Shown here piece after piece: positions 1 to 59,610 of a stretch of DNA of 64,000 nucleotides. The first letter of the stretch is position 1; each line of letters opens with the position of its first letter. Made by a program: the position numbers and the translations under genes. Below the pieces are notes generated by a model. The model did not search any database and was not told where the DNA came from. It saw only the letters and a list, made by a program, of their open reading frames with translations. Source of the DNA: Candidatus Omnitrophota bacterium (GTDB lineage Bacteria > Omnitrophota > Gorgyraeia > Gygaellales > Profunditerraquicolaceae); assembly GCA_041662125.1 (NCBI GenBank), contig JBAZTA010000003.1:264962-328961 (forward strand), given 5' to 3'.

Positions 1-28
1 GGGATCTTGGCTGGTGTTATTCATACGC

Positions 29-466
29 CTATTTCCAGGTGTAAGGAATTCTCTTATCGGAAGGCTCTGTCCTTATGATTTCATCCGGGTCGTGAGGAAT
101 ATCTGCGCAGTTGGCGATCAATGAAGGAATTTCTGCTGTGCCTTTAAATCCATACCATAATAGCGCGGGTATCTTAACTAAACAATAATTATCTTCCCCA
201 ATTTCCAGCTCCATACAAACCCCTTGACTGGAAGACTGCGCCCGGTCATCGTATATAACCAAGGCGATCTTTCCTACGGGGACCGCGAAATATTGTGTCA
301 TTTTTAAATGTTTTTTCCAGGCTTTTACTGCACCGCTGTTCACGGTAGAAAAATATATTTCTCCGAATTTGCTAAAATAAGGTGAATCACAACGCATCAT
401 ACGCATGACCTTGCCGCGTTCATCCTGAAGAATTTTTAGTTTTTCTACCAAGACACCATTAACCAT
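29..466 (-). CDS. Small cupin-fold sugar-nucleotide 3,5-epimerase / 3,4-ketoisomerase-like protein (RmlC/FdtA superfamily)
   Basis: 145 aa. 'LQDERGKV' resembles the DxRG substrate-binding motif of the RmlC family. Size and beta-rich pattern resemble FdtA/RmlC-like cupins. Lies directly downstream of CDP-glucose 4,6-dehydratase. Confidence 0.5.
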   Translation of the reverse strand: MVNGVLVEKLKILQDERGKVMRMMRCDSPYFSKFGEIYFSTVNSGAVKAWKKHLKMTQYFAVPVGKIALVIYDDRAQSSSQGVCMELEIGEDNYCLVKIPALLWYGFKGTAEIPSLIANCADIPHDPDEIIRTEPSDKRIPYTWK

Positions 467-469
467 AGG

Positions 470-1600
470 TCACTCTTTTGCCCAGGGAAGATTAACTCTC
501 TTTGCCACAGACACATAAAATTCAATTTGTTTAATGGTAAACTCCAGCATATTGGCATTATTATTCTTGTGTTTATAATATTCTTCATACCATTCAGCTG
601 CCATCTTAATAGTATCGGAAAAAGGAAGCAGCGCGTACCAATCTAAGTATTTAAGAGCTTTATCACTGGAGACTTTTAAAAAAATGCATTCTTTCGTAAC
701 TGGCTGCTGCTTGGAATACTTCCAATTATTAGTGCCACTAAAATATTTTGAGAATGTTTTAATCAGCTCGCCTACTGATTTGCTCATCTTATAGTCAGGC
801 CCGAAATTAAAAGATTCACCGCTTAATTTATTAGATTCCGCGCATTTAGCTCCCAGCCATAAATAACCGCTCAAAGGCTCAAGGACATGCTGCCAGGGCC
901 TGGTCGCCTTAGGATTGCGGACATAGACTGTCTTATTCTGGCTCCATGCCCGAACACAATCAGGCACCAAACGGTCAGTTGCCCAATCACCTCCCCCGAT
1001 AACGTTACCAGCACGGGCGGTAACCATTCTACCCCGTTTATCAAGCCTGTTAAAAAAAGATGAGTGATACGCAAAACTCACCAGCTCAGCACACGCTTTT
1101 GACGCGCTATACGGGTCTTTTCCGCCAAGTACGTCGCTCTCACGGTACCCCCAACTCCATTCCATATTCTTATAACATTTATCACTGGTAATGATCACGG
1201 CAACCGCATCGGATACGTATTTACGCATACATTCCAAAACATTAACCGTCCCTAAAACATTAGTCTCAAATGTCAATTTTGGGTCAGTAAACGCCTTACT
1301 GACGATCGGCTGGGCGGCAAGGTGAAAAATAAAATCCGGTTTATACTGAATAAAGACCTTCCGCAACGCTTCAAAGTTCCTCACATCGCCGTTAATATGC
1401 TTAATATGCTTGTCAATAGAACAGACCGAAAATAAACACGGGTTTGATGGCAGGTAGGCTGAATATCCAATGACCTCTGCCCCTAATAACTTCAGCCAAA
1501 TCGAAAGCCATGACCCTTTAAAGCCGGTATCACCGGTAACTAAAACCCGTTTACCTTGATACGCATTCTTAAATATAGATTTGTTATTTTTTTTCTTCAT
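470..1600 (-). CDS. rfbG: CDP-glucose 4,6-dehydratase
   Basis: 376 aa. N-terminal 'GKRVLVTGDTGFKGSWLSIWL' Rossmann motif is typical of CDP-glucose 4,6-dehydratases. Extended SDR with YxxxK ('YSASKACAEL'). Confidence 0.8.
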   Translation of the reverse strand: MKKKNNKSIFKNAYQGKRVLVTGDTGFKGSWLSIWLKLLGAEVIGYSAYLPSNPCLFSVCSIDKHIKHINGDVRNFEALRKVFIQYKPDFIFHLAAQPIVSKAFTDPKLTFETNVLGTVNVLECMRKYVSDAVAVIITSDKCYKNMEWSWGYRESDVLGGKDPYSASKACAELVSFAYHSSFFNRLDKRGRMVTARAGNVIGGGDWATDRLVPDCVRAWSQNKTVYVRNPKATRPWQHVLEPLSGYLWLGAKCAESNKLSGESFNFGPDYKMSKSVGELIKTFSKYFSGTNNWKYSKQQPVTKECIFLKVSSDKALKYLDWYALLPFSDTIKMAAEWYEEYYKHKNNNANMLEFTIKQIEFYVSVAKRVNLPWAKE

Positions 1601-1648
1601 ATTTTAGCTCCTGAATGCATTATATCGAGTAACGACGAAACCGACAAG

Positions 1649-2779
1649 TCATTTTTTACTAAAGAAATCCTTGATTTTCTTTATAATAAACGCTTGGGTA
1701 TTATTCTTTATATCCGGATGAAGCGGGATGCTCAGCAATTCCTCGTAAATTTCTTCGGTTACCGGTAAATGCTTTCCCTTTGAACCAAAATATGTAAGCA
1801 GATGATTCGGATAATAATGCACGCCGCATTCTATACCGCAACCAAGCAAATAACTCCTTAAATCGTTTCTCTTTCCTTCACGTACCCGGATAGAAAATAT
1901 ATGCGGGACAATTTTCTCATAATCATCAGGAAATAACGTTAATTCTTTTATTGCCGATAATGCCTGAAAATACCGTTTTGCCAGTTTTTGACGGCTTGGT
2001 TTAAATTCATTTTCAAACCTTTTGAATTGCGCAATGCCTATTGCCGCAAATAGATTGCTCATATGATACCGGTACCCCTGGTGAAAAACATCAAACTTCC
2101 AGCTGCGCTCTCCAGAATACCTTTTTTCAGTATCGTTATGCACTCCTAAAAGTCGGGCATCCTTGATTATTCTGATAACTTTTGCATCTTTAGTTACTAT
2201 CGCCCCCCCCTCACCGCAGGTAATATTTTTTATACCATCAAAACTAAAACAAACCACATCTCCAAAAGAACCAACCAGCCTGCCTTTGTAAAAAGTTCCA
2301 AACGCGTGAGCCGCGTCTTCAACAACTCTCAAGCCATGTTTACGGGCAAACGCGTATACCTCATCCAGATTCCCTGTCCTGCTGGCATAATGGACAGGCA
2401 TGATTGCTTTAGTCTTCTTGGTTAATCGACCAGCCGCATCCTTAAGGTCAATAGTCACAGTTGCGGGGAGGATTTCGCAGGGAACAGGCCGCGCGCCTAC
2501 CGCGCTGATAGCCTGAAAACAAGCAACAAAGGTAAGCGACTGCACCAAAACTTCATCTCCGGGCCCGATACCAATGCCCATGAGCGCCAGATGCAATGCC
2601 GCAGTGCCCGAATTAACACAGATGACCTCTCTGCCGCCAAAATACTCACCGAGTGTTTTCTCAAACTCACAGACGAACTTCCCCATACCCAGGTAAGATC
2701 CATCGATAACCTTACCGAGTGCTTTTTTCTCAGCTCTGCCAACGACCGATTTCGAAAGCCGGATCATTTTATTTTTCAT
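1649..2779 (-). CDS. DegT/DnrJ/EryC1/StrS-family PLP-dependent sugar aminotransferase
   Basis: Typical N-terminus 'MIRLSKSVVGRAEKKALGKVIDGSYLGMGKFVCEFEKTL'. Active-site lysine context 'FSFDGIKNITCGEGGAIVT' has Lys rather than His, so aminotransferase rather than E1 dehydrase. Start set at the ATGA-coupled Met; the alternative ATG at 2767 is equally possible. Confidence 0.75.
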   Translation of the reverse strand: MKNKMIRLSKSVVGRAEKKALGKVIDGSYLGMGKFVCEFEKTLGEYFGGREVICVNSGTAALHLALMGIGIGPGDEVLVQSLTFVACFQAISAVGARPVPCEILPATVTIDLKDAAGRLTKKTKAIMPVHYASRTGNLDEVYAFARKHGLRVVEDAAHAFGTFYKGRLVGSFGDVVCFSFDGIKNITCGEGGAIVTKDAKVIRIIKDARLLGVHNDTEKRYSGERSWKFDVFHQGYRYHMSNLFAAIGIAQFKRFENEFKPSRQKLAKRYFQALSAIKELTLFPDDYEKIVPHIFSIRVREGKRNDLRSYLLGCGIECGVHYYPNHLLTYFGSKGKHLPVTEEIYEELLSIPLHPDIKNNTQAFIIKKIKDFFSKK

Positions 2780-4275
2780 CGTACTTTTGACCAATCCTTC
2801 CTGCTGATAAAATTAAATATCTTTTTAAGGAAATACCCTGGATCTTTCAATAATTTTGATATAACCACCGCAATAAAACCAAGAGGATCCTTTTTTAGGA
2901 AAGTAAGTAAAAGAAACCGCTGTCCCTCAGCAAGGATTTTCTTGAGTTTTGTGCCATCCATCACTTCAGTTGAAATAGAGAAACTCCTGATATAAAGGTC
3001 ATCAAGTGAAAAATCAGGCCGCAGGAACCCTTTCTCTTTACATAATTTAAAAAGTTCCGAACCGGGATATGGAGTGGCTATCGATATATGCGGAGTAAAA
3101 ACCCCCAGGCTCGCGGAAAAACGAAAACTTTCCCATATTTGCTCTTGCGTTTCGTACGGCATGCCAACGACCAGAAAAATCCCGATACGCAGCCCTATCT
3201 TTTTCGCATACCTTACCAAGGGCGAGACTTTTTTAAGGTCAAGCGGCTTTTTGATGATCGTATTAAGGACTTTCTGGCTCCCGGACTCAAGAGCGAAATT
3301 AAGAGAATGGCAACCGCTTTGCTTCATTTTATTAATAAGGCTTTCATTTAATGTCCACGCGGCGATTCCATTAGGAGTATCCCAAACCAATCCCAATTTA
3401 TCCCTGCACATCCCCTCAAAAATATTATATGCGCGAGAAGGATCCAGGGTAAGGTTATCATCTTCAAACATAATTTCTTCTATCCCGTATTGAGTTTTCA
3501 AAAAGCTCAGTTCACGCAAAACATTTTCCGGTGAACGCGTGCGAAAAGCGCGCCCCCATACCGCGTAGGCAGAACAGAAAGTGCACTGCGCGGGGCATCC
3601 GCGCGAAGTTATAACAGGCGCGAATCTTTTTTTTCGCCTTTCACCGTGAGAAGACTTTAATCCAAAATACTTCTCCATGCTCAAAAGATGCCAGGCAGGA
3701 AACGGCAGAGCGTCAAGGTCTTCAATGAACCTCTTTTTCGGTATTACCTTGACAACACCCTTATCTTTATATCCGACGCCATCAAGCGTTGAAAAATCTT
3801 GATTTCCCTCAATACATGCTATCAAATCAAGGAGAGTTCTCTCACCTTCCCCCAGAACGACATAATCAACAAACTCATCTGCAAGGACCAACTCGGGCAT
3901 CACCGTAGGATGAGCGCCTCCCGCAAGGGTTATGGTTGCCTGGTCAATTTTCTTAGCAATTTCATAAATTTTATGCGCGCATTTTCGCTGTTTCGTAAAT
4001 AAATTGTTAACGCCAACAATATCCGGCTTGTAGTCGCTGGTAATTGCTTCTATCGTCTCAAAAGGCAAACCGATACGGATTGAGTCTTCCGACACACTGA
4101 CTCTGGTATCCCAACCTTCAATCAAAGCATCAATTATCTTTACTTCAATCCCTTTTTTTTCAAGAACCGCGGCTAAATACCCGAGTCCTAAAGGCGGCAT
4201 AGGATTAATATCGATCCTGTCTTTAAAGGTAATCGCAGGAGGATTAAATAAAAGGACTTTTTTGATCTTTTTCAT
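2776..4275 (-). CDS. B12-binding-domain radical SAM enzyme (class B, putative methyltransferase/other radical tailoring)
   Basis: 499 aa. N-terminal cobalamin-binding-like domain followed by radical SAM CxxxCxxC 'CPAQCTFC'. Confidence 0.75.
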   Translation of the reverse strand: MKKIKKVLLFNPPAITFKDRIDINPMPPLGLGYLAAVLEKKGIEVKIIDALIEGWDTRVSVSEDSIRIGLPFETIEAITSDYKPDIVGVNNLFTKQRKCAHKIYEIAKKIDQATITLAGGAHPTVMPELVLADEFVDYVVLGEGERTLLDLIACIEGNQDFSTLDGVGYKDKGVVKVIPKKRFIEDLDALPFPAWHLLSMEKYFGLKSSHGERRKKRFAPVITSRGCPAQCTFCSAYAVWGRAFRTRSPENVLRELSFLKTQYGIEEIMFEDDNLTLDPSRAYNIFEGMCRDKLGLVWDTPNGIAAWTLNESLINKMKQSGCHSLNFALESGSQKVLNTIIKKPLDLKKVSPLVRYAKKIGLRIGIFLVVGMPYETQEQIWESFRFSASLGVFTPHISIATPYPGSELFKLCKEKGFLRPDFSLDDLYIRSFSISTEVMDGTKLKKILAEGQRFLLLTFLKKDPLGFIAVVISKLLKDPGYFLKKIFNFISRKDWSKVR

Positions 4276-5486
4276 AACAAATTATAGTATTTTTCAGCCA
4301 TAACCCCTGCTTGAAACATATGATTCAACCGATCATAACCCTTTTCAACCATAGTATTGGATAGAGTAGCATTATTCAATATTTGTTTCATGGCGCAAGC
4401 TAATTGTTGAGAATTATTTGGTTCAACAATTAACCCTGCATCACCTAATACTTCAGGAATACCGCCAACGTCAGAAGCGATTACAGGTTTTTTATAAAGC
4501 ATTGCTTCAAGTAAAACCATTCCAAAACTCTCATAATTAATTGAGGGAAAAACAAACACATCAAAGCATTCAATGTATTCCCAGGCAGCATCGAGATACC
4601 CGGTTAAAAAAACCTTTTTTTCAAGGCGAAGCTCTTGGATAAGTTTATTTAAAGTAATTGCGTGCGCAAAAGCATCACTTCCTATAATAACTAGTTTTGA
4701 GTGCGGAAATTCATCCTGAATTTGATAAAACGCCCTGATAAGATATTCGTGGCCTTTTCTTTCCTCATAATCGCCAATGCAACCAATAATTTTGCCTGCT
4801 CCATCTAATTTCAGCGTATTCCTTTTATCTCTCAGGGATAAATGAGCGGTTCTCTCAGTAATAATGCCATTATATATATACGTTATTTTCTGGGCAGTCA
4901 GAAACCTTGTTTCTTTAAGCTGCTTGGCGCAAGAAGAAGAAACACAAATAATTTGCGAACAAGAATGATCAATCCACGCATCTATAATTCGGTCAAAAAT
5001 TCTAAAAGGCCACTGAGAGATCGTAGCGTTGTTGTGGATAACAAGAAATATCTTTTTTATCCTCGCCAATCGAGCGGCAACCACAAAAGAAAGACTTAAT
5101 TCAGCTGCCGGATAGCCGCCATTATGAGAAAATACAACTTCGAATTTATCTTTTTTTAATTTAAAATAGAATATGATTATTGAATATAAAAAAATAGGAA
5201 ATTTTAATACACTCGCTATTTTTCGCAGCTTCCAGCAAAATTGAGAGAAGCCAGAGGTTGCCCCTCTCTTAAGACTTGTGAAATTAATATCGCTCGTAGC
5301 CAATACATGAATTTGTTTTACCTTCAGGCCCCCGGCATCATAGACATACTTTCCTTTATGGCCTTTATTAAGCCACACCTCACAATGATCATTTTTAGCC
5401 GGCCATGCCTTAATCAAATTTACTAAAACGGTATCTACTCCTCCTATTTCCCGGCTCGAATAAAAGAAAACGATTTTTTTAGCCAT
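4272..5486 (-). CDS. Glycosyltransferase family 4 (GT-B, retaining)
   Basis: 404 aa. C-terminal EX7E-type motif region 'FPSINYESFGMVLLEAMLYKKPVIASDVGGIPEVL'. Confidence 0.75.
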   Translation of the reverse strand: MAKKIVFFYSSREIGGVDTVLVNLIKAWPAKNDHCEVWLNKGHKGKYVYDAGGLKVKQIHVLATSDINFTSLKRGATSGFSQFCWKLRKIASVLKFPIFLYSIIIFYFKLKKDKFEVVFSHNGGYPAAELSLSFVVAARLARIKKIFLVIHNNATISQWPFRIFDRIIDAWIDHSCSQIICVSSSCAKQLKETRFLTAQKITYIYNGIITERTAHLSLRDKRNTLKLDGAGKIIGCIGDYEERKGHEYLIRAFYQIQDEFPHSKLVIIGSDAFAHAITLNKLIQELRLEKKVFLTGYLDAAWEYIECFDVFVFPSINYESFGMVLLEAMLYKKPVIASDVGGIPEVLGDAGLIVEPNNSQQLACAMKQILNNATLSNTMVEKGYDRLNHMFQAGVMAEKYYNLL

Positions 5487-5498
5487 CTATGCTTTATA

Positions 5499-6383
5499 TT
5501 AACAAACCAAACATTGCCAACCCCATTGCTTAAATTCTGGAACGCTAAAAGAAGATTCTAAAGAAGCAAGATAATTAGGCGCTCCCGGATTGAGCGCTTC
5601 AAGTGTTTTAAGAGGGATCAATTTCACGCCTTTTATTCCCCAGGATATATAGAAAATAGTATACCCGAATCCCTCTAAATACTTATGCACAGAATCTCCG
5701 GCTCCAACAAGATTTTCATAGACGATATTTTTAATCATCTTTTGCCGTAACAAATTCTGCGCACCTTCCAACACTCTTAACTCATGCCCCTCGACATCAA
5801 TCTTTACCAATGATACGCTCTGCTTTGAAACAATTTCATCTAAGGTAGTTGTCATGGCAGGAATCCCTTGAGATTGATCATCTGAAAGATACGATGTACC
5901 CCAACTTTTCAAAATGTCGTCTTCATTAAAAGAAACAAGGCGTTGTTCTTTTCTTGCATTACTGAGCGCAGCATTAAATATCGTTATTTTTCCTGCTTTT
6001 TTGTTTTGCTTGAACAATTGAACATTATCCTTCAATACACTAAATACAAATTGATGCGGCTCAAAAGCTAAAACAGTCCCGGTTGTCCCACAGCGGCTTG
6101 CCATAATACTCGTCATATACCCGACATTGGCTCCTACATCAATAACCAGATCTCCCGGTTTGATAAGCCTCCACAACACTTCGCTCACCTCTAATTCAAA
6201 AATACACCGGTACCATAACGATAGCCCAACCGCTTCCCGGACATCAACCTTAATTTCCATGCCCCAGGGTAAAGCAAGTTTTCGCATTCTTGCTTTTTTA
6301 CAGAATGTTCCGCGCAACAATCGAATAAACAGTTGTTGCGGCCTGAATACGTAATAAGGTTGAAAAGGATTTCGAATTTTCAT
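5499..6383 (-). CDS. FkbM-family SAM-dependent methyltransferase
   Basis: 294 aa. 'LVIDVGANVGYMTSIMA' is characteristic of FkbM-family MTases. Confidence 0.7.
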   Translation of the reverse strand: MKIRNPFQPYYVFRPQQLFIRLLRGTFCKKARMRKLALPWGMEIKVDVREAVGLSLWYRCIFELEVSEVLWRLIKPGDLVIDVGANVGYMTSIMASRCGTTGTVLAFEPHQFVFSVLKDNVQLFKQNKKAGKITIFNAALSNARKEQRLVSFNEDDILKSWGTSYLSDDQSQGIPAMTTTLDEIVSKQSVSLVKIDVEGHELRVLEGAQNLLRQKMIKNIVYENLVGAGDSVHKYLEGFGYTIFYISWGIKGVKLIPLKTLEALNPGAPNYLASLESSFSVPEFKQWGWQCLVC

Positions 6384-6407
6384 ATAAAAGCAATGTAAGT
6401 ATTGCGG

Positions 6408-7148
6408 TTATTTTTTCAACATAGCTTGCCTTACTCCATACCGTATATCAAGCAACAGCTCCCAGGCATAACGCAAGAATACAGTTACAAGCCTTTTAAG
6501 CTTTTGCGCGATAACCTGTTTTCTTGACATCTTATCAATTGGGTTTTGCGGCTCATCAGAAGTTTGCTGTTGAGGAATTACAAATTTACCGATGCTTTTC
6601 AACTTCTTCGCAACGATCCAGATCACAATATCCTCTCCGCGGGCAGGATCCTTAATAATATTTCCATAAACCGTACTGAACTTTAAATATATGACCTGAA
6701 AATTATTTGATTCCAGCGCACCTCGTATCGCTACAGGATTTAACACATGCAATCCGTGTCCGAAAAATCCGTTTACCGCTGTAACCAACACGTAAGCGCC
6801 GCCAACTTTTACCATACGCAAGCAATTCTCAATGCACTGCCTTGTGTCAAAAACATGTTCTAAACATCCTATATCGAAAACGACATTATATTTCTCATTT
6901 TCTTCTCGGGGAACAGGCAAATTCATATCATATTTTAAATCTGCCCTCTCATCAAAATAATCCAATGTCGAAATCTCAGATACTCCTTTTGCAACCAGCA
7001 ACTCCTTAACATCTTTGTATTCAAATTCATTGGAAGCACCACTTGCGTCAAAAACCTGATACCCAAACATCAAAAAAGGCCCTTTTAAAATTCCCGGGAT
7101 ACTGAATATTTCGTTACAAATAGGCATAAGAGCTTTTGATAACGCCAC
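6408..7148 (-). CDS. Hypothetical protein, methyltransferase-like with degenerate motif I
   Basis: 246 aa. 'VVFDIGCLEHVFD' resembles class-I MTase motif III, but no clear GxGxG. GTG start preceded by strong SD 'AGGAGGAG'. Confidence 0.35.
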   Translation of the reverse strand: MALSKALMPICNEIFSIPGILKGPFLMFGYQVFDASGASNEFEYKDVKELLVAKGVSEISTLDYFDERADLKYDMNLPVPREENEKYNVVFDIGCLEHVFDTRQCIENCLRMVKVGGAYVLVTAVNGFFGHGLHVLNPVAIRGALESNNFQVIYLKFSTVYGNIIKDPARGEDIVIWIVAKKLKSIGKFVIPQQQTSDEPQNPIDKMSRKQVIAQKLKRLVTVFLRYAWELLLDIRYGVRQAMLKK

Positions 7149-7217
7149 AGTTCTCCTCCTGAAATTATTCCAAAACTTTTGTTTCTTAACTCGAGAACGA
7201 TCCCTTGTAAAAACGGC

Positions 7218-8150
7218 TTAATTTTTTTTCATAATAAGTGAAAATAACGCCCCCCCGTAAGGAGAATTGTTTTTAATTTTCCTTGAGAAAAACTTATTAA
7301 TTCCGTTACTACTCTCATTGACCCAAGCTCCTAAATGTTTATAGGTATTTACCGAAATTATCTTAAAATCAGGGAAAAATCTTTCATGCAATTTAAAAGG
7401 GTCAAAACCTTCACCCTTTTCATCAGGATCATGAATATCGACAATTGCGTTTATATCCTTAATAGTCAAATCTTGCCCAACAAGCTTCTTTTCCTTAACA
7501 GCCCAATAAACCTTCTGATTAAAATCCTTTCCTGGCCCAAGCCGTTTACGGAACATCCCCAAAAATATAAGGATATTGCGCGCGATTCTCTTTAATACCA
7601 TCCTTACTTTCACTAAATTTTGGTAAACAAACAAAATAAACGACCTGTTTTGAGAATGTAGTTTATTTCTCTCATGCATTATTATAAAAAGACCTCCCTT
7701 AGTAACATGTTTCCCCAGCCCTGACAAAACTTGCGGGTAATCAGGGATATGATGCAAAACTGAATTCATCGTAATACAATCAACTTTTAAGTCCATCTTG
7801 GAAATTTCAAGCGCGTCGGCTTTTATAAATTCTTTCTTAATCTTATTCAGCGATGCTAAATGTTCTTGTGTAATCTTAAGCATTTTCTCAGATAGATCCG
7901 TACAAATTATCTTGTCGTTTTCTTTCAAATACCCGGATACAAGCATAGGAACAAATCCGGTTCCGGTGCCGATATCAAGGATAGTAAGTTGCTTATCACT
8001 TTTTAAAAAGGTTTGCCCGATCTGTTCCCAGGCGGATTTTTCATCTACATATATTTCCGGATGCCTTTGCACATAATATTGGGCTTCCAGATCATGATAG
8101 ATCTCGTTAACTTCCTTAACTTGAGCGTCGTCTAAAATTATTTTAGCCAT
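7218..8150 (-). CDS. Class I SAM-dependent methyltransferase
   Basis: 310 aa. Motif I 'ILDIGTGTGFVPMLVSGYL'. Confidence 0.75.
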   Translation of the reverse strand: MAKIILDDAQVKEVNEIYHDLEAQYYVQRHPEIYVDEKSAWEQIGQTFLKSDKQLTILDIGTGTGFVPMLVSGYLKENDKIICTDLSEKMLKITQEHLASLNKIKKEFIKADALEISKMDLKVDCITMNSVLHHIPDYPQVLSGLGKHVTKGGLFIIMHERNKLHSQNRSFILFVYQNLVKVRMVLKRIARNILIFLGMFRKRLGPGKDFNQKVYWAVKEKKLVGQDLTIKDINAIVDIHDPDEKGEGFDPFKLHERFFPDFKIISVNTYKHLGAWVNESSNGINKFFSRKIKNNSPYGGALFSLIMKKN

Positions 8151-8181
8151 TATTCAACCCACTAAATCCACGTATCCCGTT

Positions 8182-9318
8182 TTAAGATTCTCTTAATGCC
8201 TGGACAACAATATCTTTTGAAAAACGATTTTCGCTTTCTTTCGAAGTAAGACAACTATACTTATATTTATCATACAAAACCGCATTAACAGCAGGGACCT
8301 GCAATGTTTTAATGCATTCTTCTGAGTCAATATTATACGCCTTTGACCCTAGTGACTTTGAAAGAAATTCCAGGGTCCTGAAGTTGGCCTTTCTCTTAAC
8401 CCGATATTCCTGAGTATAAACAAATATGATCGGTTTACGGTAAAGCACGGCGTATGAAGTAGATGTACTTGACTGCGAAATAACAAATCGGGAATCTTTG
8501 ACCAACTCGCATGTCTTTCCTTCATAACTTAAGCGACCCTTAAAAATATTTTTTTCATACGTAATGCCGGGATGCGCAGCAATGACAACCTTTACTTTAA
8601 AGCTTTTTTCGATAACACTAAAAAAATTATTCAATGATTCATAAAACTTTATAAAATCAAGTTGCTGCATGTTCAAAAGCGACACATCATCATTATACAC
8701 AGGCCCTTCATCTAAAAAAACACAATATTCACCGGCAACGACCCGTTGCGACATATTTTTAGTCAGTTGATAATAATCATAATCCTGATAATTAATATTG
8801 ACTACATGGAAATGATCCTTGAAAGCATCGCCGGTCAAGCGGCCGGCAACAAACACAAGGTCATATTTTCTTATTAAACCTGCCCTTTTGCATACATTCG
8901 CGATGAGGTTTAAAAAAGTTTGGAAAAAAACTGCCGGCCTGATCTTATCGATTATTTTCGTAGTCAAATCCTCTCTCGCATACGCCACCCAGGGAAAATA
9001 AACAGTCTTACACCTTAAACGCGTCATAAGTAAATAGAGAGATATGACCTGCCATCCAAAGTATACCTGCAAAACAAATACGGTACTTTTTAAATCCTCG
9101 TTCTTTAAACGCACTTTCAACTCGTCAAAAGAGTTAATTTCTTTGACATATTCCCGGGATAACGTGTTCTTAAAATGACGGCCTTTAAAATAAATACCTT
9201 TTAAATCCCAATACTCAACAGGTATGCCCGCATCAAGCACATCCTGAATTAACAGGTATCTTTCGATCTGGGGTGTTAAAGCAAAGATTGTGATATAAAT
9301 AACCTTTTTATGAGCCAT
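8182..9318 (-). CDS. Hypothetical GT-B-like transferase (TagF/KpsS/sialyltransferase-like pattern)
   Basis: 378 aa, no canonical motifs. C-terminal half 'KVKVVIAAHPGITYEK...FVISQSSTSTSYAVLYRKPIIFV' resembles the TagF/Capsule_synth family pattern. Confidence 0.3.
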   Translation of the reverse strand: MAHKKVIYITIFALTPQIERYLLIQDVLDAGIPVEYWDLKGIYFKGRHFKNTLSREYVKEINSFDELKVRLKNEDLKSTVFVLQVYFGWQVISLYLLMTRLRCKTVYFPWVAYAREDLTTKIIDKIRPAVFFQTFLNLIANVCKRAGLIRKYDLVFVAGRLTGDAFKDHFHVVNINYQDYDYYQLTKNMSQRVVAGEYCVFLDEGPVYNDDVSLLNMQQLDFIKFYESLNNFFSVIEKSFKVKVVIAAHPGITYEKNIFKGRLSYEGKTCELVKDSRFVISQSSTSTSYAVLYRKPIIFVYTQEYRVKRKANFRTLEFLSKSLGSKAYNIDSEECIKTLQVPAVNAVLYDKYKYSCLTSKESENRFSKDIVVQALRES

Positions 9319-9348
9319 TATGATTATGTGTTTTTTTCATAAAGAACC

Positions 9349-10737
9349 CTACGTTTGCCTAAAACCTCGAAAATCCCTGTTCTTTTTTAAATAGAGATTT
9401 TCAGCCTCTAAGATCATAGCCTTGCATTTTTTACTATAATAGTTTTTCAATAACACCGAATTAGCTTCAAGCAAACAACGATGAAAGTCATCAGCAGAAA
9501 GTTCGGTAAAATTTACGGTTAAAAGATCAGAATTAATATGTTTGTTTTCATAAAAATCCTCGCAATCTCTCAATAAACCTTTTCGGATCGCATAGTAATA
9601 CAGCGGAGACCCGGGATACGGAGTTACCGGCCGGATCGTGCGCATCTGTGAACAATCGTCATATTTCAGCAAGAATTCAACCCCTTTAAACAATGTTTCT
9701 TTGTTTTCTCCGATGTTTCCGAAAATAATGTTATAGCCTGGGCTTATTCCGGCTTTCAAAGTCGCTTCTATCCCCTTGATGATCTGTTGCGTCGTTAATG
9801 ATTTATTCATATTTTTGAGTATCCGGTTATCCATGGCTTCTATGCCATAATTAATAAAAACGCAACCGGATCTTTTCATCAGTTTCAAAACTTCTGGCAG
9901 GGCAAAATTGAGCCTGCCGCAACAAGACCATTTAATATGTAATTTGTTTTTAAGAAAATCGTTGCACAGGCTGGTTATTCGTGCGATCGAAGTCATCAAA
10001 AGTTCGTCAGTGAAAACAATATACTGTATACCGTAATCTTTCTTTAACAGCTTTATTTCTTCAATAATGCCGGCACTGGAGCGGATGCGCAGGCCTTCAT
10101 CCATCCGATAACAAAAATTACATTTAAAATTACACCCTCTGCCGGAAAGAACCGGCATCGCAAAATCACTATTCAATGCGTGAGGCATTCTTAAAAGCCT
10201 ATAATGGTCAATGGGAAACAGATTAAAAGCAGGAAATGGTATGCTGTCAATATTTTCTATAAGGGCACGCCTGGGGTTAATCACAACTTTCTGACCTTCC
10301 CTAAACGCTATTCCCAAAACATTCGAAAACGATGTTTTGTTCTTCAAAGCATTCAGCAATTCAATAACAGTGATCTCGCCTTCCCCCATCACCACAGCAT
10401 CCGCTTGTGTTTTTAAAAGAAAATATTCCGGTTCAGGGGTCGGCCCATGGCCGCCGATAACAAAAAAAGGCCGTTTACGAAGCTCGCGTATTACACGCGA
10501 TATCTTTAACAACTTTCTATATTGATAATACCCCGCGATCACACTAACCCCAACAACATCAAAATGATTCTTTTTCAAATATTCCTTAAGATGCTCTTCC
10601 GGATAATGGGATATGTCCTGATTATAAATTTCTACCTCATGCCCGTTTTGAGATAAAACCGCAGCAATATATGCAAGTCCTTGCGGGAAGAAATGAATAT
10701 AGGCTCCGTTATCATAAATAACCAATAAAATTTTCAT
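9349..10737 (-). CDS. B12-binding-domain radical SAM enzyme (class B)
   Basis: 462 aa. N-terminal B12-binding-like domain and radical SAM 'GCNFKCNFCY'. Paralogous architecture to 2776..4275. Confidence 0.75.
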   Translation of the reverse strand: MKILLVIYDNGAYIHFFPQGLAYIAAVLSQNGHEVEIYNQDISHYPEEHLKEYLKKNHFDVVGVSVIAGYYQYRKLLKISRVIRELRKRPFFVIGGHGPTPEPEYFLLKTQADAVVMGEGEITVIELLNALKNKTSFSNVLGIAFREGQKVVINPRRALIENIDSIPFPAFNLFPIDHYRLLRMPHALNSDFAMPVLSGRGCNFKCNFCYRMDEGLRIRSSAGIIEEIKLLKKDYGIQYIVFTDELLMTSIARITSLCNDFLKNKLHIKWSCCGRLNFALPEVLKLMKRSGCVFINYGIEAMDNRILKNMNKSLTTQQIIKGIEATLKAGISPGYNIIFGNIGENKETLFKGVEFLLKYDDCSQMRTIRPVTPYPGSPLYYYAIRKGLLRDCEDFYENKHINSDLLTVNFTELSADDFHRCLLEANSVLLKNYYSKKCKAMILEAENLYLKKNRDFRGFRQT

Positions 10738-10747
10738 AAAATATCCC

Positions 10748-12259
10748 TTAATGTATCGCAGGTTGCTTTAGAAATAATCTTTTTATATCCTGCCTATCTA
10801 ATTCACTCAAACTGGCATAATATAAACTTAACGAAACGCAATAGATAACAGACATCTCAATAAGTACTGCAAATATGTTCTGAGGGTACCAATACTTCAG
10901 CATAACGGCAGAAGCTAAATACACAAACACATATATCAGCAGATTACCGCGAATTGACCTTTTAAAGTACTCAACAAACTTAATTTTCAGATTTATGAGT
11001 GATATTCGCAGAGTAAAAGGGAAACCTATCAATATCATTGAAACTGTCAAGCCGGCTGCAGGCGCGATGATCCCCAATCTTTTTATAAAAGTAAGGGTCA
11101 AAACTATATTTGCGGCTACAACTCCCAATTGAATAAAAAGAGGTTTTTTCACAACTCCCTTAGCAGAAAGCATACTGCTTGCTAACTCCAAGGTCCCGTT
11201 AAAAAGCCAGAATACTATAATGATCTTTGCGGGCAGGATACTTTCGCGAAAAGTATCCCCCATCCAGTATATAATAAACGGCTCGGCAAAGACAAAGAGC
11301 ATAAGAATGACCGGTAAAAAGGCCGCAGACATATACTTGGTCCCTTTAAAGACAAGCTGCCGTTGTAATTCATGTTCTCCCCTTCCTTCCATTTCAGACG
11401 CTATTGTCCATGGCGGCGCACCGATCGTAGAATTAATTACCCTTAAGTACGATTGAATATTATAGGCAACCGCATAGGTAGATACCGCAGAAAGCGAGAT
11501 ATAATATCCAATAATGAGGTTATGGATTTGAAATAAAAAACTACTAAGCAATGCGCTGACAAAACAAAAAAAACTGAAATTAAATATGAATTTGAAAGTT
11601 TTAAGTTCTGTATAGGGGAAAGTTATCCTAAAATCATACCTTTTCTTGACAATACAATACAAAACCGTACTCCCCAATATGGTTAAAACCTGATTCACGA
11701 TGAATAATTGAACTATCCCGCACCCTGACATCAAGAGGGCATACGTACATATACCATTTAAAATTTGAACGGATATATTAACCGAAGCATCTAAATCCCA
11801 TAAATTTAATCCCTGGATGAAACCGCGGAATGTATTGATCGGCCAAACCAGCAATGCTGACAAAGCTGCTACTATAAAGAGGTCTCGAGCAACAGCAATA
11901 TTCGCAGGCAGAACTTTAAAGAATTTGACAAAGAATACTGAGAAAAAAAACAATAATAACGATACCGTGATGCCTATCAGCACATAAAAGGTGAACGATG
12001 CATTAACGATCTTATTGACACTCTCGTTGTCCTTTTTTCCGTTATACTCGGAAACATACTTAGTCAATGCCGACATTACGCCAAGATCTAAAAGCCCGAA
12101 ATATCCGGTAACAGTCATGGCAACCAAGTAAACTCCGTAAATTTCTTTTCCGACATATTTAACTATAAAAGGAAAAAGAAAGAAAGAGATCGCAACGCTG
12201 GCGATTCGGTTTGCCGCTAAAAAACTGATATTTTTTCCGATGAGGCGTATTTTCGACAT
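10748..12259 (-). CDS. Polysaccharide biosynthesis protein / Wzx-like oligosaccharide flippase (MOP superfamily)
   Basis: 503 aa, about 12-14 predicted TM helices, typical Wzx/MATE-like topology. No soluble domains. Confidence 0.6.
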   Translation of the reverse strand: MSKIRLIGKNISFLAANRIASVAISFFLFPFIVKYVGKEIYGVYLVAMTVTGYFGLLDLGVMSALTKYVSEYNGKKDNESVNKIVNASFTFYVLIGITVSLLLFFFSVFFVKFFKVLPANIAVARDLFIVAALSALLVWPINTFRGFIQGLNLWDLDASVNISVQILNGICTYALLMSGCGIVQLFIVNQVLTILGSTVLYCIVKKRYDFRITFPYTELKTFKFIFNFSFFCFVSALLSSFLFQIHNLIIGYYISLSAVSTYAVAYNIQSYLRVINSTIGAPPWTIASEMEGRGEHELQRQLVFKGTKYMSAAFLPVILMLFVFAEPFIIYWMGDTFRESILPAKIIIVFWLFNGTLELASSMLSAKGVVKKPLFIQLGVVAANIVLTLTFIKRLGIIAPAAGLTVSMILIGFPFTLRISLINLKIKFVEYFKRSIRGNLLIYVFVYLASAVMLKYWYPQNIFAVLIEMSVIYCVSLSLYYASLSELDRQDIKRLFLKQPAIH

Positions 12260-12282
12260 ATACGGGTAAACGTCTTTTAAGA

Positions 12283-14300: not shown

Positions 14301-14312
14301 GTATTAAACACC

Positions 14313-15374: not shown

Positions 15375-15390
15375 GAATTTTAACCTTTCA

Positions 15391-16787: not shown

Positions 16788-16799
16788 GGCATCATATTT

Positions 16800-18559: not shown

Positions 18560-18568
18560 TTTATGGAC

Positions 18569-19342: not shown

Positions 19343-19345
19343 TAC

Positions 19346-58836: not shown

Positions 58837-59610
58837 TTATTTCCATATTTTCCAAGGCGCCTCATCAGATCTCCAGAGCCTATCTAACTCAACCTTGTCG
58901 CGCAACGTATCCATGCATTTCCAAAACCCGCCGTGCTTGTAAGCGTTAAGTTGTTTACGCGTCGATAATTGTTCCAAAGACTCTTTCTCCCAAATACTCT
59001 CATCATTCTTGATATAATCAAATACTCCCGGTTCCAATACAAAAAACCCGCCATTAACCCAGTCACCATCTCCTTGGGGCTTTTCCCGAAACGAAAGGAC
59101 ATTATGCTTATCATCTAAAGCCAGCGCTCCAAAACGGGCATACGGTTTGACCGCGGTAACGGTCGCGAGTTTTCCTTTCTTTTTATGAAACTCCACAAGT
59201 TTCTTTATGTTAACGTTGCTGACGCCGTCGCCGTAAGTCAACATGAACGTATTATCCGCGATGTAATTTTTGATACGTTTGATCCTGCCTCCTGTCATCG
59301 TATTTAAGCCCGTATCAATCAGCGTAACTTTCCATGGCTCTGCTTTTGACCCCAAAACTTTAATTTTATTCTTCTCTAAATCAATGGTCACATCGCTGGA
59401 ATGTAAAAAGATATTCGCGAAATATTCTTTGATCATAAACCCCTTATATCCAAGGCATATAATAAAATCGTTAAAACCATAACTTGAAAAAATCTTCATA
59501 ATGTGCCACAGGATCGGCTTCTCTCCAATTTCTACCATTGGCTTGGGCTTTAAATCGGTTTCTTCGCTTAAACGAGACCCGATCCCACCAGCTAAAATAA
59601 CCACTTTCAT
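58837..59610 (-). CDS. rfbF: Glucose-1-phosphate cytidylyltransferase
   Basis: 257 aa. 'VVILAGGIGSRLSEETDLKPKPMVEIGEKPILWHIM' is highly characteristic of the RfbF/DdhA family. Confidence 0.8.
   Translation of the reverse strand: MKVVILAGGIGSRLSEETDLKPKPMVEIGEKPILWHIMKIFSSYGFNDFIICLGYKGFMIKEYFANIFLHSSDVTIDLEKNKIKVLGSKAEPWKVTLIDTGLNTMTGGRIKRIKNYIADNTFMLTYGDGVSNVNIKKLVEFHKKKGKLATVTAVKPYARFGALALDDKHNVLSFREKPQGDGDWVNGGFFVLEPGVFDYIKNDESIWEKESLEQLSTRKQLNAYKHGGFWKCMDTLRDKVELDRLWRSDEAPWKIWK

What the first reader, a model, noticed from the sequence alone, without database searches (positions are those of the whole stretch)
29..4275. Left-edge CDP-sugar sub-block: RfbG + DegT aminotransferase + cupin + second B12-radical SAM
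Seen: CDP-glucose 4,6-dehydratase, a Lys-containing DegT aminotransferase, a 145-aa RmlC/FdtA-like cupin and a B12-radical SAM ('CPAQCTFC') are ATGA-coupled with a GT4. Together with rfbF at 58837 this indicates a CDP-4-keto-6-deoxyglucose branch. Inference: a CDP-linked amino-dideoxyhexose, possibly radical-methylated. This is not the classical 3,6-dideoxyhexose route, because no E1/E3 (DdhC/DdhD) is present. The window starts inside this block, so more genes may lie to the left.
Basis: partly seen in the sequence, partly recalled or inferred. Interest (0 to 1): 0.55.

Follow-up and report, generated by a model that had tools for sequence, protein, structure and literature searches.

The report
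CDP-amino-sugar cassette with B12 radical-SAM enzyme
The left edge of this window carries a gene cassette, conserved in many uncultured anaerobic bacteria, that most likely makes a CDP-carried amino-deoxy sugar, probably methylated by a vitamin-B12 radical enzyme, a type of sugar pathway I could not find described.

Summary
On the minus strand, GT4, a B12-type radical SAM, a Lys-containing DegT aminotransferase, CDP-glucose 4,6-dehydratase (RfbG) and a 145-aa cupin form one tight block. Only the first two junctions are ATGA overlaps. The window is part of a 396-kb Candidatus Omnitrophota contig. The block continues leftwards with GT2, an AsnB-like amidotransferase, GT4, WecA-like, PglF-like and Wzy-like genes and a third B12-rSAM.

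Comparative genomics gives the main evidence. RfbF-RfbG-cupin is a conserved core in 80 genomes from many phyla. A DegT orthologue sits directly upstream in 13 of them, in the slot an SDR reductase occupies in sister loci. The rSAM orthologue is immediately followed by this DegT in 17 other loci (Omnitrophota, Nitrospirota, Nitrospinota, Chloroflexota, Clostridia).

No E1/E3 genes are present, and the second DegT is PseC.

Best reading: CDP-glucose is converted to the 4-keto-6-deoxy sugar, the cupin epimerises it (closest functional fold: WbcA), DegT transaminates it, the rSAM C-methylates it, and GT2 transfers it.

The product, the cupin reaction and the rSAM chemistry are inferred. An AprD4/DesII-like role for the rSAM is not excluded.

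It is a new variant of a known kind, of moderate interest.

The parts
4272..5486 (-). GT4-family glycosyltransferase, first gene of the tight block. Its stop overlaps the rSAM start (ATGA).
   Evidence: PF00534 124.7 bits and PF13439 54.6 bits. A GT4 orthologue lies upstream of the rSAM in L004, L034, L090, L091 and L166.
2776..4275 (-). Radical SAM enzyme (499 aa) with an N-terminal B12-binding domain. Proposed cobalamin-dependent C-methyltransferase acting on the sugar.
   Evidence: PF02310 79.4 bits and PF04055 73.7 bits. CxxxCxxC at residues 227-234. Best NCBIfam family is NF038361 (SD_1168) at 299.6 bits, below the 575 cut-off. AF2 model pLDDT 91.2. Foldseek: AprD4 TM 0.71/0.77, TsrM 0.67. 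An orthologue lies directly upstream of the DegT orthologue in 17 other loci.
1649..2779 (-). DegT/DnrJ/EryC1-family PLP aminotransferase (376 aa from ATG 2779; an alternative TTG start lies at 2794). Proposed to transaminate the CDP-keto-6-deoxyhexose.
   Evidence: PF01041 323.5 bits. Lys184 aligns with ArnB Lys188 and is invariant in 16 orthologues. Family profile against PDB: ArnB 320 bits, perosamine synthase 264, QdtB 251, E1 176. ATGA overlap with the rSAM stop.
470..1600 (-). CDP-glucose 4,6-dehydratase (RfbG/DdhB).
   Evidence: TIGR02622 447.7 bits against a cut-off of 278.45. GxxGxxG ('GDTGFKG') and YxxxK ('YSASK') are visible in the translation. It is the only such gene in the window.
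29..466 (-). 145-aa RmlC-like cupin of the uncharacterised 3EJK family. Proposed CDP-4-keto-6-deoxyhexose epimerase (less likely a 3,4-ketoisomerase).
1..24 (-). First 8 codons of a GT2 glycosyltransferase (315 aa, cut by the window edge). Proposed transferase for the CDP-sugar.
   Evidence: L001 11577-12524 is identical DNA. PF00535; TuaG/EpsE/PglI-like, not ArnC/GtrB-like. An orthologue (>=150 bits) follows the cupin in 26/80 genomes and in every rSAM-DegT locus with downstream DNA.
58837..59610 (-). Glucose-1-phosphate cytidylyltransferase (RfbF/DdhA), which supplies CDP-glucose. It is displaced 57 kb from the cassette.
   Evidence: TIGR02623 427.3 bits against a cut-off of 300.25. In related loci RfbF sits between DegT and RfbG or just after the cupin.
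8182..9318 (-). 378-aa protein of unknown family that travels with the cassette in Omnitrophota-type loci. Possibly a glycosyl- or phospho-transferase. Membership of the system is tentative.
   Evidence: No Pfam, NCBIfam or PDB hit. Orthologues lie upstream of GT4-rSAM in L004, L034, L090 and L166. Remote similarity to the C-terminal part of the ~600-aa TIGR04326-like proteins that sit upstream of rSAM/DegT elsewhere (hhalign probability 80%, E = 1.4e-5).

Best explanation
The block is one copy of a widely conserved but uncharacterised cassette, rSAM-DegT-(RfbF)-RfbG-cupin-GT2, that builds and transfers a CDP-activated amino-6-deoxyhexose.

Proposed steps:
1. RfbF makes CDP-D-glucose. (Shown at family level.)
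2. RfbG makes CDP-4-keto-6-deoxy-D-glucose. (Shown at family level.)
3. The 145-aa cupin rearranges the keto-sugar. Most likely it epimerises at C3 and/or C5, as the CDP-specific epimerase WbcA does. (Inferred.)
4. DegT transaminates the keto group, probably at C4, giving a CDP-4-amino-4,6-dideoxyhexose. (Inferred from the catalytic Lys, the synteny, and its occupying the slot an SDR holds in sister loci.)
5. The B12-binding radical SAM adds a methyl group to an unactivated carbon of this sugar as an optional decoration. (Inferred.)
6. The GT2 that starts at window position 24 transfers the sugar to the growing glycan. (Inferred from synteny.)

Sub-confidences: the CDP-keto sugar as the DegT substrate, about 0.75; the cupin as an epimerase rather than an isomerase, about 0.6; the rSAM as a methyltransferase acting on this sugar, about 0.45.
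For: Family assignments above curated cut-offs for RfbF and RfbG.

DegT has the PLP lysine, invariant in 16 orthologues.

Cupin-anchored scan of 80 genomes:
- RfbG orthologue upstream of the cupin in 50, plus 15 with a weaker dehydratase-like SDR.
- RfbF present in 65.
- DegT orthologue (>=350 bits) directly upstream of RfbF/RfbG-cupin in 13, and never together with a 'cupin then SDR' arrangement.
- In 8 of the 9 GT2-type loci that lack DegT, an SDR occupies the slot just before RfbF or RfbG; in the four read in detail it shares the 4-nt overlap with RfbF that two DegT-type loci show.
- DegT-type and SDR-type loci are intermixed in one cupin clade.

rSAM-anchored scans: the orthologue is followed at once by the DegT orthologue in L084, L085, L086, L089, L090, L092 and L093, in L164 (Clostridia), L165 (Chloroflexota) and L166, and in L004, L005, L018, L034, L056 and L075, with one methyltransferase gene between them in L043. 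The CDP character persists in these distant cassettes: RfbF scores 333.7 bits against a cut-off of 300, and the dehydratases have TIGR02622 as their best match at 226-235 bits.

DegT family profile ranks C4-aminotransferases first: ArnB 320 bits, perosamine synthase 264, against QdtB/DesV at about 250.

rSAM: the N-terminal domain passes PF02310 (79.4 against 32.1). The closest family is the SD_1168 methyltransferase family (300 bits over residues 3-424), whereas the AprD4 family scores 96 bits on the rSAM core only. SD_1168 clusters with the sugar/CMP-substrate C-methylases Fom3, MoeK5, GenK and Fms7 (PMC9204698).

Loci with DegT but no rSAM exist (6 of 13), with the same RfbG, cupin and GT2. 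This fits an add-on decoration.
Against: - No biochemistry exists for any member, and the organism is an uncultured MAG.
- The best structural match of the rSAM model is AprD4, a cobalamin-independent diol dehydratase (TM 0.71/0.77). Reviews warn that AprD4-like enzymes sit inside the 'B12-rSAM' similarity network (PMC12931638).
- The rSAM scores well below the cut-off of every curated family.
- By sequence alignment the cupin lacks the RmlC catalytic Tyr (aligned to Ala118) and Lys (aligned to Gln58), and it has no C-terminal Asp region. Its chemistry may therefore differ. The alignments disagree with one another about the catalytic His.
- In L089 and L090 the rSAM-DegT-GT2 genes occur with no RfbG or cupin between them, and in L088 the rSAM is followed directly by RfbG.
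- In this window RfbF lies 57 kb away, next to a TylC3-type C-methyltransferase. The single RfbG may therefore feed more than one branch.
- C4 rather than C3 amination rests only on similarity ranking.
Confidence: 0.55

Rival explanations
1. The radical SAM is not a methyltransferase. It is a cobalamin-independent radical lyase or dehydratase of the AprD4 or DesII type. Working with DegT, it would remove a hydroxyl or amino group, giving an E1/E3-independent route to a further deoxygenated CDP-sugar (for example a 3-keto-4,6-dideoxy or 3-deoxy-4-amino sugar).
For: AprD4 is the best PDB sequence hit (rSAM core, E = 7e-20) and the best fold match over the full length (TM 0.71/0.77). AprD4-like proteins that lack cobalamin are known to sit inside the B12-rSAM similarity network. 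From my own knowledge, DesI/DesII is a precedent for a DegT aminotransferase paired with a radical SAM in sugar deoxygenation.
Against: The AprD4 family model covers only residues 184-421 and scores 95.7 bits against a cut-off of 500, while the SD_1168 methylase family covers residues 3-424 at 299.6 bits. The N-terminal domain passes PF02310. It aligns with the cobalamin domains of TsrM, TokK and OxsB but not with the N-domain of AprD4, which scored -2.1. No DesII-named family is among the 25 NCBIfam hits. No extra reductase or second aminotransferase co-varies with the rSAM to process a keto product, and rSAM-less loci keep the same DegT, cupin and GT2.
Confidence: 0.18
2. The rSAM is a genuine cobalamin-dependent methylase, but its substrate is not the CDP-sugar. 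It would act on the lipid-linked oligosaccharide, on the finished glycan or on another sugar of this very large cluster. Its adjacency to DegT would then reflect co-inheritance within glycan islands.
For: The cluster holds at least three B12-rSAMs, two SPASM rSAMs and many SAM methyltransferases. L089 and L090 keep rSAM-DegT-GT2 without RfbG or the cupin between them.
Against: The rSAM then DegT order, often with overlapping stop and start codons, is kept in 17 other loci from at least five phyla whose surrounding genes differ. The paralogous rSAM at 9349-10737 shows no such link. Rearrangement across phyla should have broken an adjacency that was merely co-inherited.
Confidence: 0.17
3. DegT serves the PglF/WbpM-like UDP-GlcNAc 4,6-dehydratase found 6 genes further left, making a bacillosamine-type UDP-sugar. 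RfbG and the cupin would then make only a CDP-6-deoxyhexose for other branches.
For: A PglF-like gene (613 aa; PseB model 205 bits) and a WecA-like gene lie downstream. The best NCBIfam hits of DegT are UDP-sugar enzymes: PseC at 264 bits and ArnB at 252 bits.
Against: Most loci with the DegT orthologue have no PglF homologue within 10 kb, while RfbF/RfbG are immediately adjacent. DegT replaces an SDR in the same slot of the CDP cassette. No SDR reductase accompanies RfbG and the cupin here to finish a 6-deoxyhexose.
Confidence: 0.05
4. This is a classical 3,6-dideoxyhexose (abequose/paratose/tyvelose/ascarylose) pathway in which the DegT-like protein is the E1 dehydrase.
For: RfbF and RfbG are the first two enzymes of that route. 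A YerE-like ThDP enzyme at 47028-48812 recalls yersiniose synthesis.
Against: The catalytic Lys is present and invariant. There is no CxC motif and only one conserved Cys, so no [2Fe-2S] site. The RfbH model scores 148.5 bits against a cut-off of 423, and E1 structures rank about 40th. No E3-type reductase gene appears among the ORFs of 140 aa or more in the window or in the genes called over the 10 kb to its left.
Confidence: 0.02

Closest known systems
CDP-6-deoxy-D-gulose pathway of Yersinia enterocolitica O:8 (DdhA, DdhB, WbcA epimerase, WbcB reductase)
   Different: The cupin belongs to another, shorter family (145 against 178 aa; 18% identity; 3EJK family) without the canonical Tyr and Lys by alignment. 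Here the reductase is replaced by an aminotransferase and a radical SAM is added.
NDP-4-amino-4,6-dideoxyhexose and 4-amino-pentose pathways on dTDP, GDP or UDP (perosamine synthase Per, ArnB, WecE/VioA, PseC/PglE)
   Same: The logic is the same: a 4,6-dehydratase followed by a DegT-family Lys aminotransferase acting on the 4-keto sugar. ArnB and perosamine synthase are the closest solved relatives of the DegT.
   Different: The carrier nucleotide is CDP. I found no paper with 'CDP-4-amino', 'CDP-3-amino', CDP-viosamine or CDP-perosamine in 8 million full texts. DegT is below the cut-off of every named equivalog.
Cobalamin-dependent radical SAM C-methyltransferases of sugar or CMP-linked substrates (GenK, GenD1 with aminotransferase GenS2, Fms7, MoeK5, Fom3) and the orphan SD_1168
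   Same: The architecture matches: an N-terminal B12 domain plus a CxxxCxxC rSAM core. SD_1168 is the closest curated family, and it clusters with these enzymes. From my own knowledge and PMC4340712, the gentamicin garosamine pathway pairs a DegT-type aminotransferase with a B12-rSAM C-methylase on the same sugar ring.
   Different: Those enzymes act on aminoglycoside pseudo-oligosaccharides, moenomycin or HEP-CMP, not on a nucleotide hexose destined for a cell-surface glycan. The score of 299.6 is well below the 575 cut-off. The physiological substrate of SD_1168 is itself unknown.
AprD4 (radical SAM 1,2-diol dehydratase, apramycin) and DesI/DesII (desosamine C4 deoxygenation)
   Same: AprD4 is the best structural match of the rSAM model and acts on an amino sugar. 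DesI/DesII is an aminotransferase plus rSAM pair acting on an NDP-4-keto-6-deoxyhexose.
   Different: The N-terminal domain here is sequence-similar to true cobalamin domains and not to that of AprD4. The AprD4 family model scores only 95.7 bits against a cut-off of 500. The partner enzymes of those pathways (AprD3 reductase, DesV) have no counterpart in the cassette.
Classical CDP-3,6-dideoxyhexose pathway (DdhA-D; E1/E3)
   Same: It shares RfbF/DdhA and RfbG/DdhB and the CDP-4-keto-6-deoxyglucose intermediate.
   Different: There is no E1 (Lys instead of His, and no Fe-S cysteines) and no E3. The branch goes to amination instead of C3 deoxygenation.

Membership tests
CDP-glucose 4,6-dehydratase (TIGR02622, RfbG/DdhB) | Whole-protein score above the curated equivalog cut-off | tested here: met
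   447.7 bits against 278.45, covering profile positions 2-351 of 352.
CDP-glucose 4,6-dehydratase (TIGR02622, RfbG/DdhB) | Extended-SDR NAD-binding GxxGxxG motif and catalytic YxxxK | tested here: met
   'VTGDTGFKGSW' and 'YSASK' are present in the translation.
Glucose-1-phosphate cytidylyltransferase (TIGR02623, RfbF/DdhA) | Whole-protein score above the curated equivalog cut-off | tested here: met
   427.3 bits against 300.25, full length.
DegT/DnrJ/EryC1 sugar aminotransferases | PF01041 fold-type I domain with the PLP-binding lysine | tested here: met
   323.5 bits. Lys184 aligns with ArnB Lys188; the 4OCA K188A mutant shows Ala in that column. Lys184 is invariant in 16/16 orthologues.
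E1 dehydrase (DdhC/AscC/RfbH) | His in place of the PLP lysine, plus a conserved cysteine set for a [2Fe-2S] cluster | tested here: not met
   Lys is present. There is no CxC motif, and only Cys177 is conserved. NF011936 RfbH scores 148.5 against 423. E1 structures score 176 bits against 320 for ArnB.
RmlC-type NDP-4-keto-6-deoxyhexose epimerases (PF00908) | Domain score above the Pfam gathering threshold | tested here: not met
   23.5 bits against 27 for this protein, although most homologues carry a precomputed PF00908 hit.
RmlC-type NDP-4-keto-6-deoxyhexose epimerases (PF00908) | RmlC jelly-roll fold | tested here: met
RmlC-type NDP-4-keto-6-deoxyhexose epimerases (PF00908) | Catalytic His base and Tyr acid (with Lys and an Asp partner), as described in PMC9095892 | tested here: inconclusive
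   Profile alignments put the RmlC Tyr on Ala118 and the Lys on Gln58, and the C-terminal Asp region is absent. The His column differs between alignments. No coordinates were available for a superposition.
FdtA/QdtA 3,4-ketoisomerases | Sequence membership and closest fold | tested here: not met
Cobalamin-dependent (class B) radical SAM methyltransferases | CxxxCxxC radical SAM core preceded by an N-terminal B12-binding Rossmann domain | tested here: met
   PF04055 73.7 bits, PF02310 79.4 bits against a cut-off of 32.1. C227-x3-C231-x2-C234. The model is confident, pLDDT 91.2.
Cobalamin-dependent (class B) radical SAM methyltransferases | Cobalamin actually bound, and methyl transfer (SAH plus 5'-dAdo produced) | not testable with these tools
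   Needs purified protein. AprD4 shows that a Rossmann-like N-domain need not bind cobalamin.
SD_1168 family (NF038361) | Score above the curated cut-off | tested here: not met
   299.6 bits against 575. The more distant relatives L094 and L096 also fail, at 307 and 270 bits.
AprD4-family radical SAM diol dehydratase (NF033070) | Score above the curated cut-off over the whole protein | tested here: not met
   95.7 bits against 500, covering residues 184-421 only. It is nevertheless the best fold match.

The most novel reading that the evidence does not exclude
The cassette encodes the first CDP-linked amino-sugar pathway and the first cobalamin-dependent radical SAM enzyme that C-methylates a nucleotide-activated hexose for a cell-surface glycan. 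The product would be a C-methyl-branched (or chain-extended) 4-amino-4,6-dideoxyhexose. The pathway uses a new RmlC-fold cupin subfamily with a non-canonical catalytic set, and it is spread across at least five phyla of mostly uncultured anaerobes. It would also suggest the physiological substrate class of the orphan SD_1168-like clade.
Probability: 0.35. Interest if true: 0.7.

Novelty: new variant of a known kind. Interest (0 to 1): 0.55.

Why it matters
Nucleotide-sugar biochemistry currently treats CDP-hexoses as precursors of 3,6-dideoxy and a few 6-deoxy or branched sugars. A CDP-carried amino sugar would add a branch point.

The rSAM family here has thousands of members with no assigned substrate. 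A conserved genetic partner (a DegT aminotransferase within a CDP-glucose module) gives a concrete and cheap in-vitro hypothesis for it. It may also help with the related enzyme SD_1168, whose physiological role is unknown.

The 145-aa cupin family has had a crystal structure (3EJK) since 2008 but no function. Its near-obligate pairing with RfbF and RfbG now points to its substrate.

The carriers are Omnitrophota, Nitrospirota, Chloroflexota and other uncultured anaerobes, whose surface glycans are unexplored.

Tried and rejected
- **Classical E1/E3 route.** Rejected by the Lys/His and cysteine tests and by the absence of any E3-like gene (Pfam of all ORFs).
- **DegT as partner of the PglF-like dehydratase.** Rejected by synteny in other genomes.
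- **Downstream GT2 as an ArnC/GtrB-type polyprenyl-phosphate transferase** (suggested by the ArnB similarity). Rejected: it matches TuaG/EpsE/PglI-type GT2s.
- **Second DegT (22668-23840) as part of the system.** Rejected: it is PseC, at 484 bits against 423.
- **SDR at 56576-57574 as a second CDP-glucose dehydratase.** Rejected: TIGR02622 scores 53 bits.
- **AsnB-like gene correlated with DegT.** Not upheld: only 1 of 9 DegT-type loci with full flanks has it.
- **Residue-level assignment of the cupin active site.** hmmsearch, phmmer and hhalign gave conflicting alignments.
- **Literature.** There were no hits for a CDP-amino sugar, and none for a cupin or radical SAM linked to CDP-sugar genes. 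The one 'CDP-amino' hit concerned CDP-threonine. The WbcA paper itself could not be read.
- **Exact-protein look-ups.** Four genes in the right half of the window found nothing, probably because the start-codon calls differ.
- **Promoter and terminator scan of 1-12500.** Not above shuffled expectation.
- **Genomic context of SD_1168.** Could not be retrieved with the remaining caps.

Full report
**Observation**

The window is 100% identical to the reverse complement of part of JGI metagenome contig Ga0376277_0000172 (395,841 bp). NCBI names that contig a Candidatus Omnitrophota MAG. Every gene of 140 aa or more that is not a shadow ORF lies on the minus strand. The whole 64 kb, and at least 10 kb beyond its left end, is one glycan-biosynthesis island.

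In transcription order they are:
- GT4, 5486-4272.
- Radical SAM with a B12-binding domain, 4275-2776: PF02310 79.4 bits, PF04055 73.7 bits, CPAQCTFC at residues 227-234.
- DegT aminotransferase, 2779/2794-1649: PF01041 323.5 bits.
- CDP-glucose 4,6-dehydratase, 1600-470: TIGR02622 447.7 bits against a cut-off of 278.
- A 145-aa cupin, 466-29: PF00908 23.5 bits, just under the cut-off of 27.

ATGA overlaps join GT4 to the rSAM, and the rSAM to DegT if DegT starts at ATG 2779 as JGI calls it. The other junctions are spacers of 48, 3 and 4 nt. RfbF at 58837-59610 is an equivalog-level glucose-1-phosphate cytidylyltransferase, at 427.3 bits against 300.

To the left of the window the operon continues with a GT2 (its ATG is at window position 24), an AsnB-like amidotransferase, GT4, a WecA-like gene, a PglF-like gene, a Wzy_C protein and a third B12-rSAM.

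**No classical 3,6-dideoxy route**

I scanned the listed ORFs of 140 aa or more against Pfam, either directly or through the precomputed tables of the identical loci. Only two DegT-family genes exist. The second, at 22668-23840, is PseC (484 bits against 423) and sits inside a NeuB/nonulosonic-acid block. No E3-type reductase is present.

The DegT of the finding carries the PLP lysine. Lys184 aligns with ArnB Lys188, and the 4OCA K188A mutant shows Ala in that same column. Lys184 is invariant in 16 orthologues. Only one cysteine is conserved and there is no CxC motif. The RfbH model scores 148 bits against 423.

**Comparative genomics anchored on the cupin**

The cupin family is large: 3474 clusters at E < 1e-5, with the listed top 120 at 60-81% identity. 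A scan of one genome per GTDB species returned 80 loci from Omnitrophota, Nitrospirota, Planctomycetota-labelled MAGs, Desulfobacterota, Acidobacteriota, Chloroflexota, Bacillota, Proteobacteria, Elusimicrobiota and DPANN archaea.

I searched the window's proteins against all ORFs of these loci:
- An RfbG orthologue (>=250 bits) lies just upstream of the cupin in 50 loci. Another 15 have a weaker dehydratase-like SDR.
- RfbF is present in 65.
- The gene straight after the cupin is an SDR in 25 loci and a GT2 in 25.

RfbF-RfbG-cupin is therefore an old, conserved core. In its commonest form (with SDR and GT2) it has the logic of the Yersinia enterocolitica CDP-6-deoxy-D-gulose pathway: DdhA, DdhB, the WbcA epimerase and the WbcB reductase (PMC9095892 Table 1).

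An orthologue of the window's DegT (>=350 bits) sits directly upstream of RfbF/RfbG-cupin in 13 loci, and never in loci of the 'cupin then SDR' type. In 8 of the 9 GT2-type loci that lack DegT, an SDR occupies the slot just before RfbF or RfbG. In the four read in detail it shares the 4-nt overlap with RfbF that two DegT-type loci show. DegT-type and SDR-type loci are intermixed in one clade of the cupin tree.

This is the usual signature of two alternative fates of a 4-keto sugar, reduction or transamination. It ties DegT to the CDP module and not to the PglF-like gene, which is absent from most of these loci. Counting a second, downstream-DegT variant, 25 of the 80 cupin loci have an adjacent DegT-family gene.

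**Comparative genomics anchored on the radical SAM**

The rSAM orthologue (>=400 bits) lies upstream of DegT in 7 of the 13 loci. It is directly adjacent in six, and one methyltransferase gene intervenes in L043.

A scan of metagenome contigs with an rSAM alignment found 13 orthologous loci. DegT follows the rSAM in L084, L085, L086, L089, L090, L092 and L093, and L092 and L093 carry the cassette further (rSAM-DegT-RfbF-RfbG, plus cupin and GT2 in L092). L088 is the one exception, where RfbG follows the rSAM directly. The other five contigs end too soon or encode more distant relatives. Hits at about 30% identity have no sugar genes nearby and belong to another family.

Three further orthologues chosen from the protein search give the same order with independent Pfam tables: B12-rSAM, DegT, RfbF where present, RfbG-like SDR, cupin, GT2. 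They come from a Clostridia MAG, a Chloroflexota genome and a JGI contig. In these distant cassettes RfbF still passes its cut-off (333.7 against 300). The shorter dehydratases still match TIGR02622 best, at 226-235 bits.

In L089 and L090, RfbG and the cupin are missing between DegT and GT2, so the tightest unit is rSAM-DegT-GT2. The GT2 is a soluble Leloir-type enzyme (TuaG/EpsE/PglI-like) with a DxD motif and a hydrophobic tail. It is not ArnC/GtrB-like.

**The cupin**

Its only close solved relative is 3EJK (E = 1.5e-39), a structural-genomics entry labelled 'dTDP sugar isomerase' with no associated function. A family profile finds RmlC structures at E = 6e-7 to 1e-4 and QdtA only at 0.035.

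Epimerase is therefore the better guess. However, the RmlC catalytic Tyr aligns with a nearly invariant Ala118, the Lys aligns with Gln58, and the C-terminal Asp region is absent. The alignments also disagree about the His. Invariant residues H53, C120, H125 and E129, and the nearly invariant Y105, are candidates for a different catalytic set. I could not superpose coordinates.

**The aminotransferase**

A profile of 16 orthologues ranks ArnB first (320 bits), followed by a glutamine:scyllo-inositol transaminase (304), TlmJ (272), perosamine synthase (264), and then the C3 enzymes QdtB and DesV (about 250). E1 scores 176. This leans towards C4 amination but does not prove it.

**The radical SAM**

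By sequence, the closest curated family is the SD_1168 family, at 299.6 bits over residues 3-424 against a cut-off of 575. HpnJ scores 162 bits. The AprD4 family scores 95.7 bits, on the rSAM core only. [quoted passage not shown] It clusters with Fom3, MoeK5, HpnJ, GenK and Fms7 (PMC9204698).

By fold (model pLDDT 91.2), the best match is AprD4 (TM 0.71/0.77), just ahead of TsrM (0.67), the glutamine methylase 9CCB, OxsB, TokK and CysS. A 2026 review warns that AprD4 does not bind cobalamin although it sits inside the B12-rSAM similarity network.

Three points favour a real cobalamin domain:
- The clear PF02310 hit.
- The N-terminal domain aligns with TsrM, TokK and OxsB but not with AprD4, whose N-domain scored -2.1.
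- The N-terminal domain is strongly conserved, including an invariant 'GGAH'.

Two points favour a decorating reaction such as methylation. Six DegT-type loci work without the rSAM while keeping the same RfbG, cupin and GT2. No reductase or second aminotransferase co-varies with the rSAM.

**Model and rivals**

The best model has six steps:
1. RfbF makes CDP-glucose.
2. RfbG makes CDP-4-keto-6-deoxyglucose.
3. The cupin epimerises it.
4. DegT forms a CDP-4-amino-4,6-dideoxyhexose.
5. The rSAM C-methylates it.
6. GT2 transfers it to the glycan.

Steps 1 and 2 are shown at family level. Steps 3 to 6 are inferred.

The rivals are:
- An AprD4/DesII-like lyase role for the rSAM (0.18).
- A methylase acting on the glycan rather than on the nucleotide sugar (0.17).
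- DegT serving the PglF-like enzyme (0.05).
- The classical dideoxy route (0.02).

In this window the single RfbG may also feed other branches. RfbF is followed by a TylC3-type C-methyltransferase and an SDR, and a YerE-like ThDP enzyme is present.

**Novelty**

Full-text searches of about 8 million papers found no 'CDP-4-amino', 'CDP-3-amino', CDP-viosamine or CDP-perosamine. They also found no paper linking CDP-glucose genes with a radical SAM.

The parts belong to known superfamilies, and the dehydratase-aminotransferase logic is classical. What is new is the CDP carrier for an amino sugar, the conserved coupling to a B12-type radical SAM, and the function-less cupin subfamily. I rate it a new variant of a known kind, with moderate interest (0.55). 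It is a well-defined and widely distributed target for enzymology rather than a surprise in principle.

Noticed in passing
window 12283-24828 (minus strand): A complete-looking pseudaminic/nonulosonic-acid block. It contains a PseB-like SDR (23827-24828), PseC (22668-23840; 484 bits against 423), a formyltransferase, a class-III aminotransferase, an aldo-keto reductase, a CMP-sugar synthetase-like CTP_transf_3, WbqC, a second formyltransferase-like protein, a PIG-L deacetylase, NeuB and two SPASM radical SAMs (12283-14300). These are followed by Wzx and the first B12-rSAM (9349-10737).
   Followed up: partly
window 35355-37216, 47028-48812, 51391-53436, 57571-58821: Machinery for branched-chain sugars: two TylC3-type C-methyltransferases (PF08421+PF08484), one of them directly after rfbF; a canonical RmlC (191 bits); a YerE/acetolactate-synthase-like ThDP enzyme; and E1 alpha/beta ThDP pairs. 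L066, L069 and L021 also have a TylC3-type methyltransferase homologue (>=200 bits) in the same locus as the cupin, which hints at CDP-linked C-methyl or two-carbon-branched sugars.
   Followed up: partly
window 59812-62229 (minus strand): A carbamoyltransferase (621 aa) is followed by two small membrane proteins, one SxtJ-like (133 aa, PF19588 26.5 bits) and one DUF5989 (52 aa, 81.6 bits). This is the same trio as SxtI/J/K of saxitoxin clusters, here just upstream of rfbF in a glycan island.
   Followed up: partly
window 42616-45270 (minus strand): An 884-aa protein that appears to fuse an O-unit-flippase-like membrane domain (NF041503, residues 40-387) to a TIGR04372-family glycosyltransferase domain (residues 653-854; 203 bits).
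   Followed up: no
L005 2805-6189; L018 2611-5159; L025 4280-6846; L087 3871-5754; L089 6045-7823; L164 849-6903: In other phyla the rSAM-DegT pair is directly preceded by a homologous ~590-645-aa protein of unknown function. This protein is a weak relative of the TIGR04326 'surface carbohydrate biosynthesis protein'. It is often accompanied by a CTP_transf_3 cytidylyltransferase, a HAD or IMPase phosphatase, a SIS domain protein and dehydrogenases. The window lacks it, but its unknown 378-aa protein (8182-9318) shows remote similarity to the C-terminal part (hhalign probability 80%).
   Followed up: partly
L028, L035, L046, L047, L049, L053, L058, L063, L067: A second amino-sugar variant of the cupin cassette: RfbF, a divergent dehydratase-like SDR (about 110-145 bits to RfbG), the cupin, and then a different DegT-family gene placed downstream of the cupin. 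Cupin cassettes also occur in DPANN archaea (L028, L032, L037, L069), though only L028 of these shows the downstream DegT.
   Followed up: no
L001 19859-21131 (left of the window): A third B12-binding radical SAM gene follows the Wzy_C-like gene. This island therefore encodes at least three B12-type and two SPASM-type radical SAM enzymes, plus about ten SAM-dependent methyltransferases.
   Followed up: no
window 1601-1648: The only sizeable spacer inside the block (48 nt, between DegT and RfbG) contains a sigma-70-like match (TTGTCG-17-TATAAT, 10 of 12) and an AGGAG ribosome-binding site. Promoter-like matches in the region are no more frequent than in shuffled sequence.
   Followed up: partly
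window 40771-59610: Exact-sequence look-ups of four proteins from the right half of the window found no record, although the left half is on record from two assemblies (JGI and Logan SRR18595301). The cause is probably different start-codon calls. I did not resolve it.
   Followed up: no
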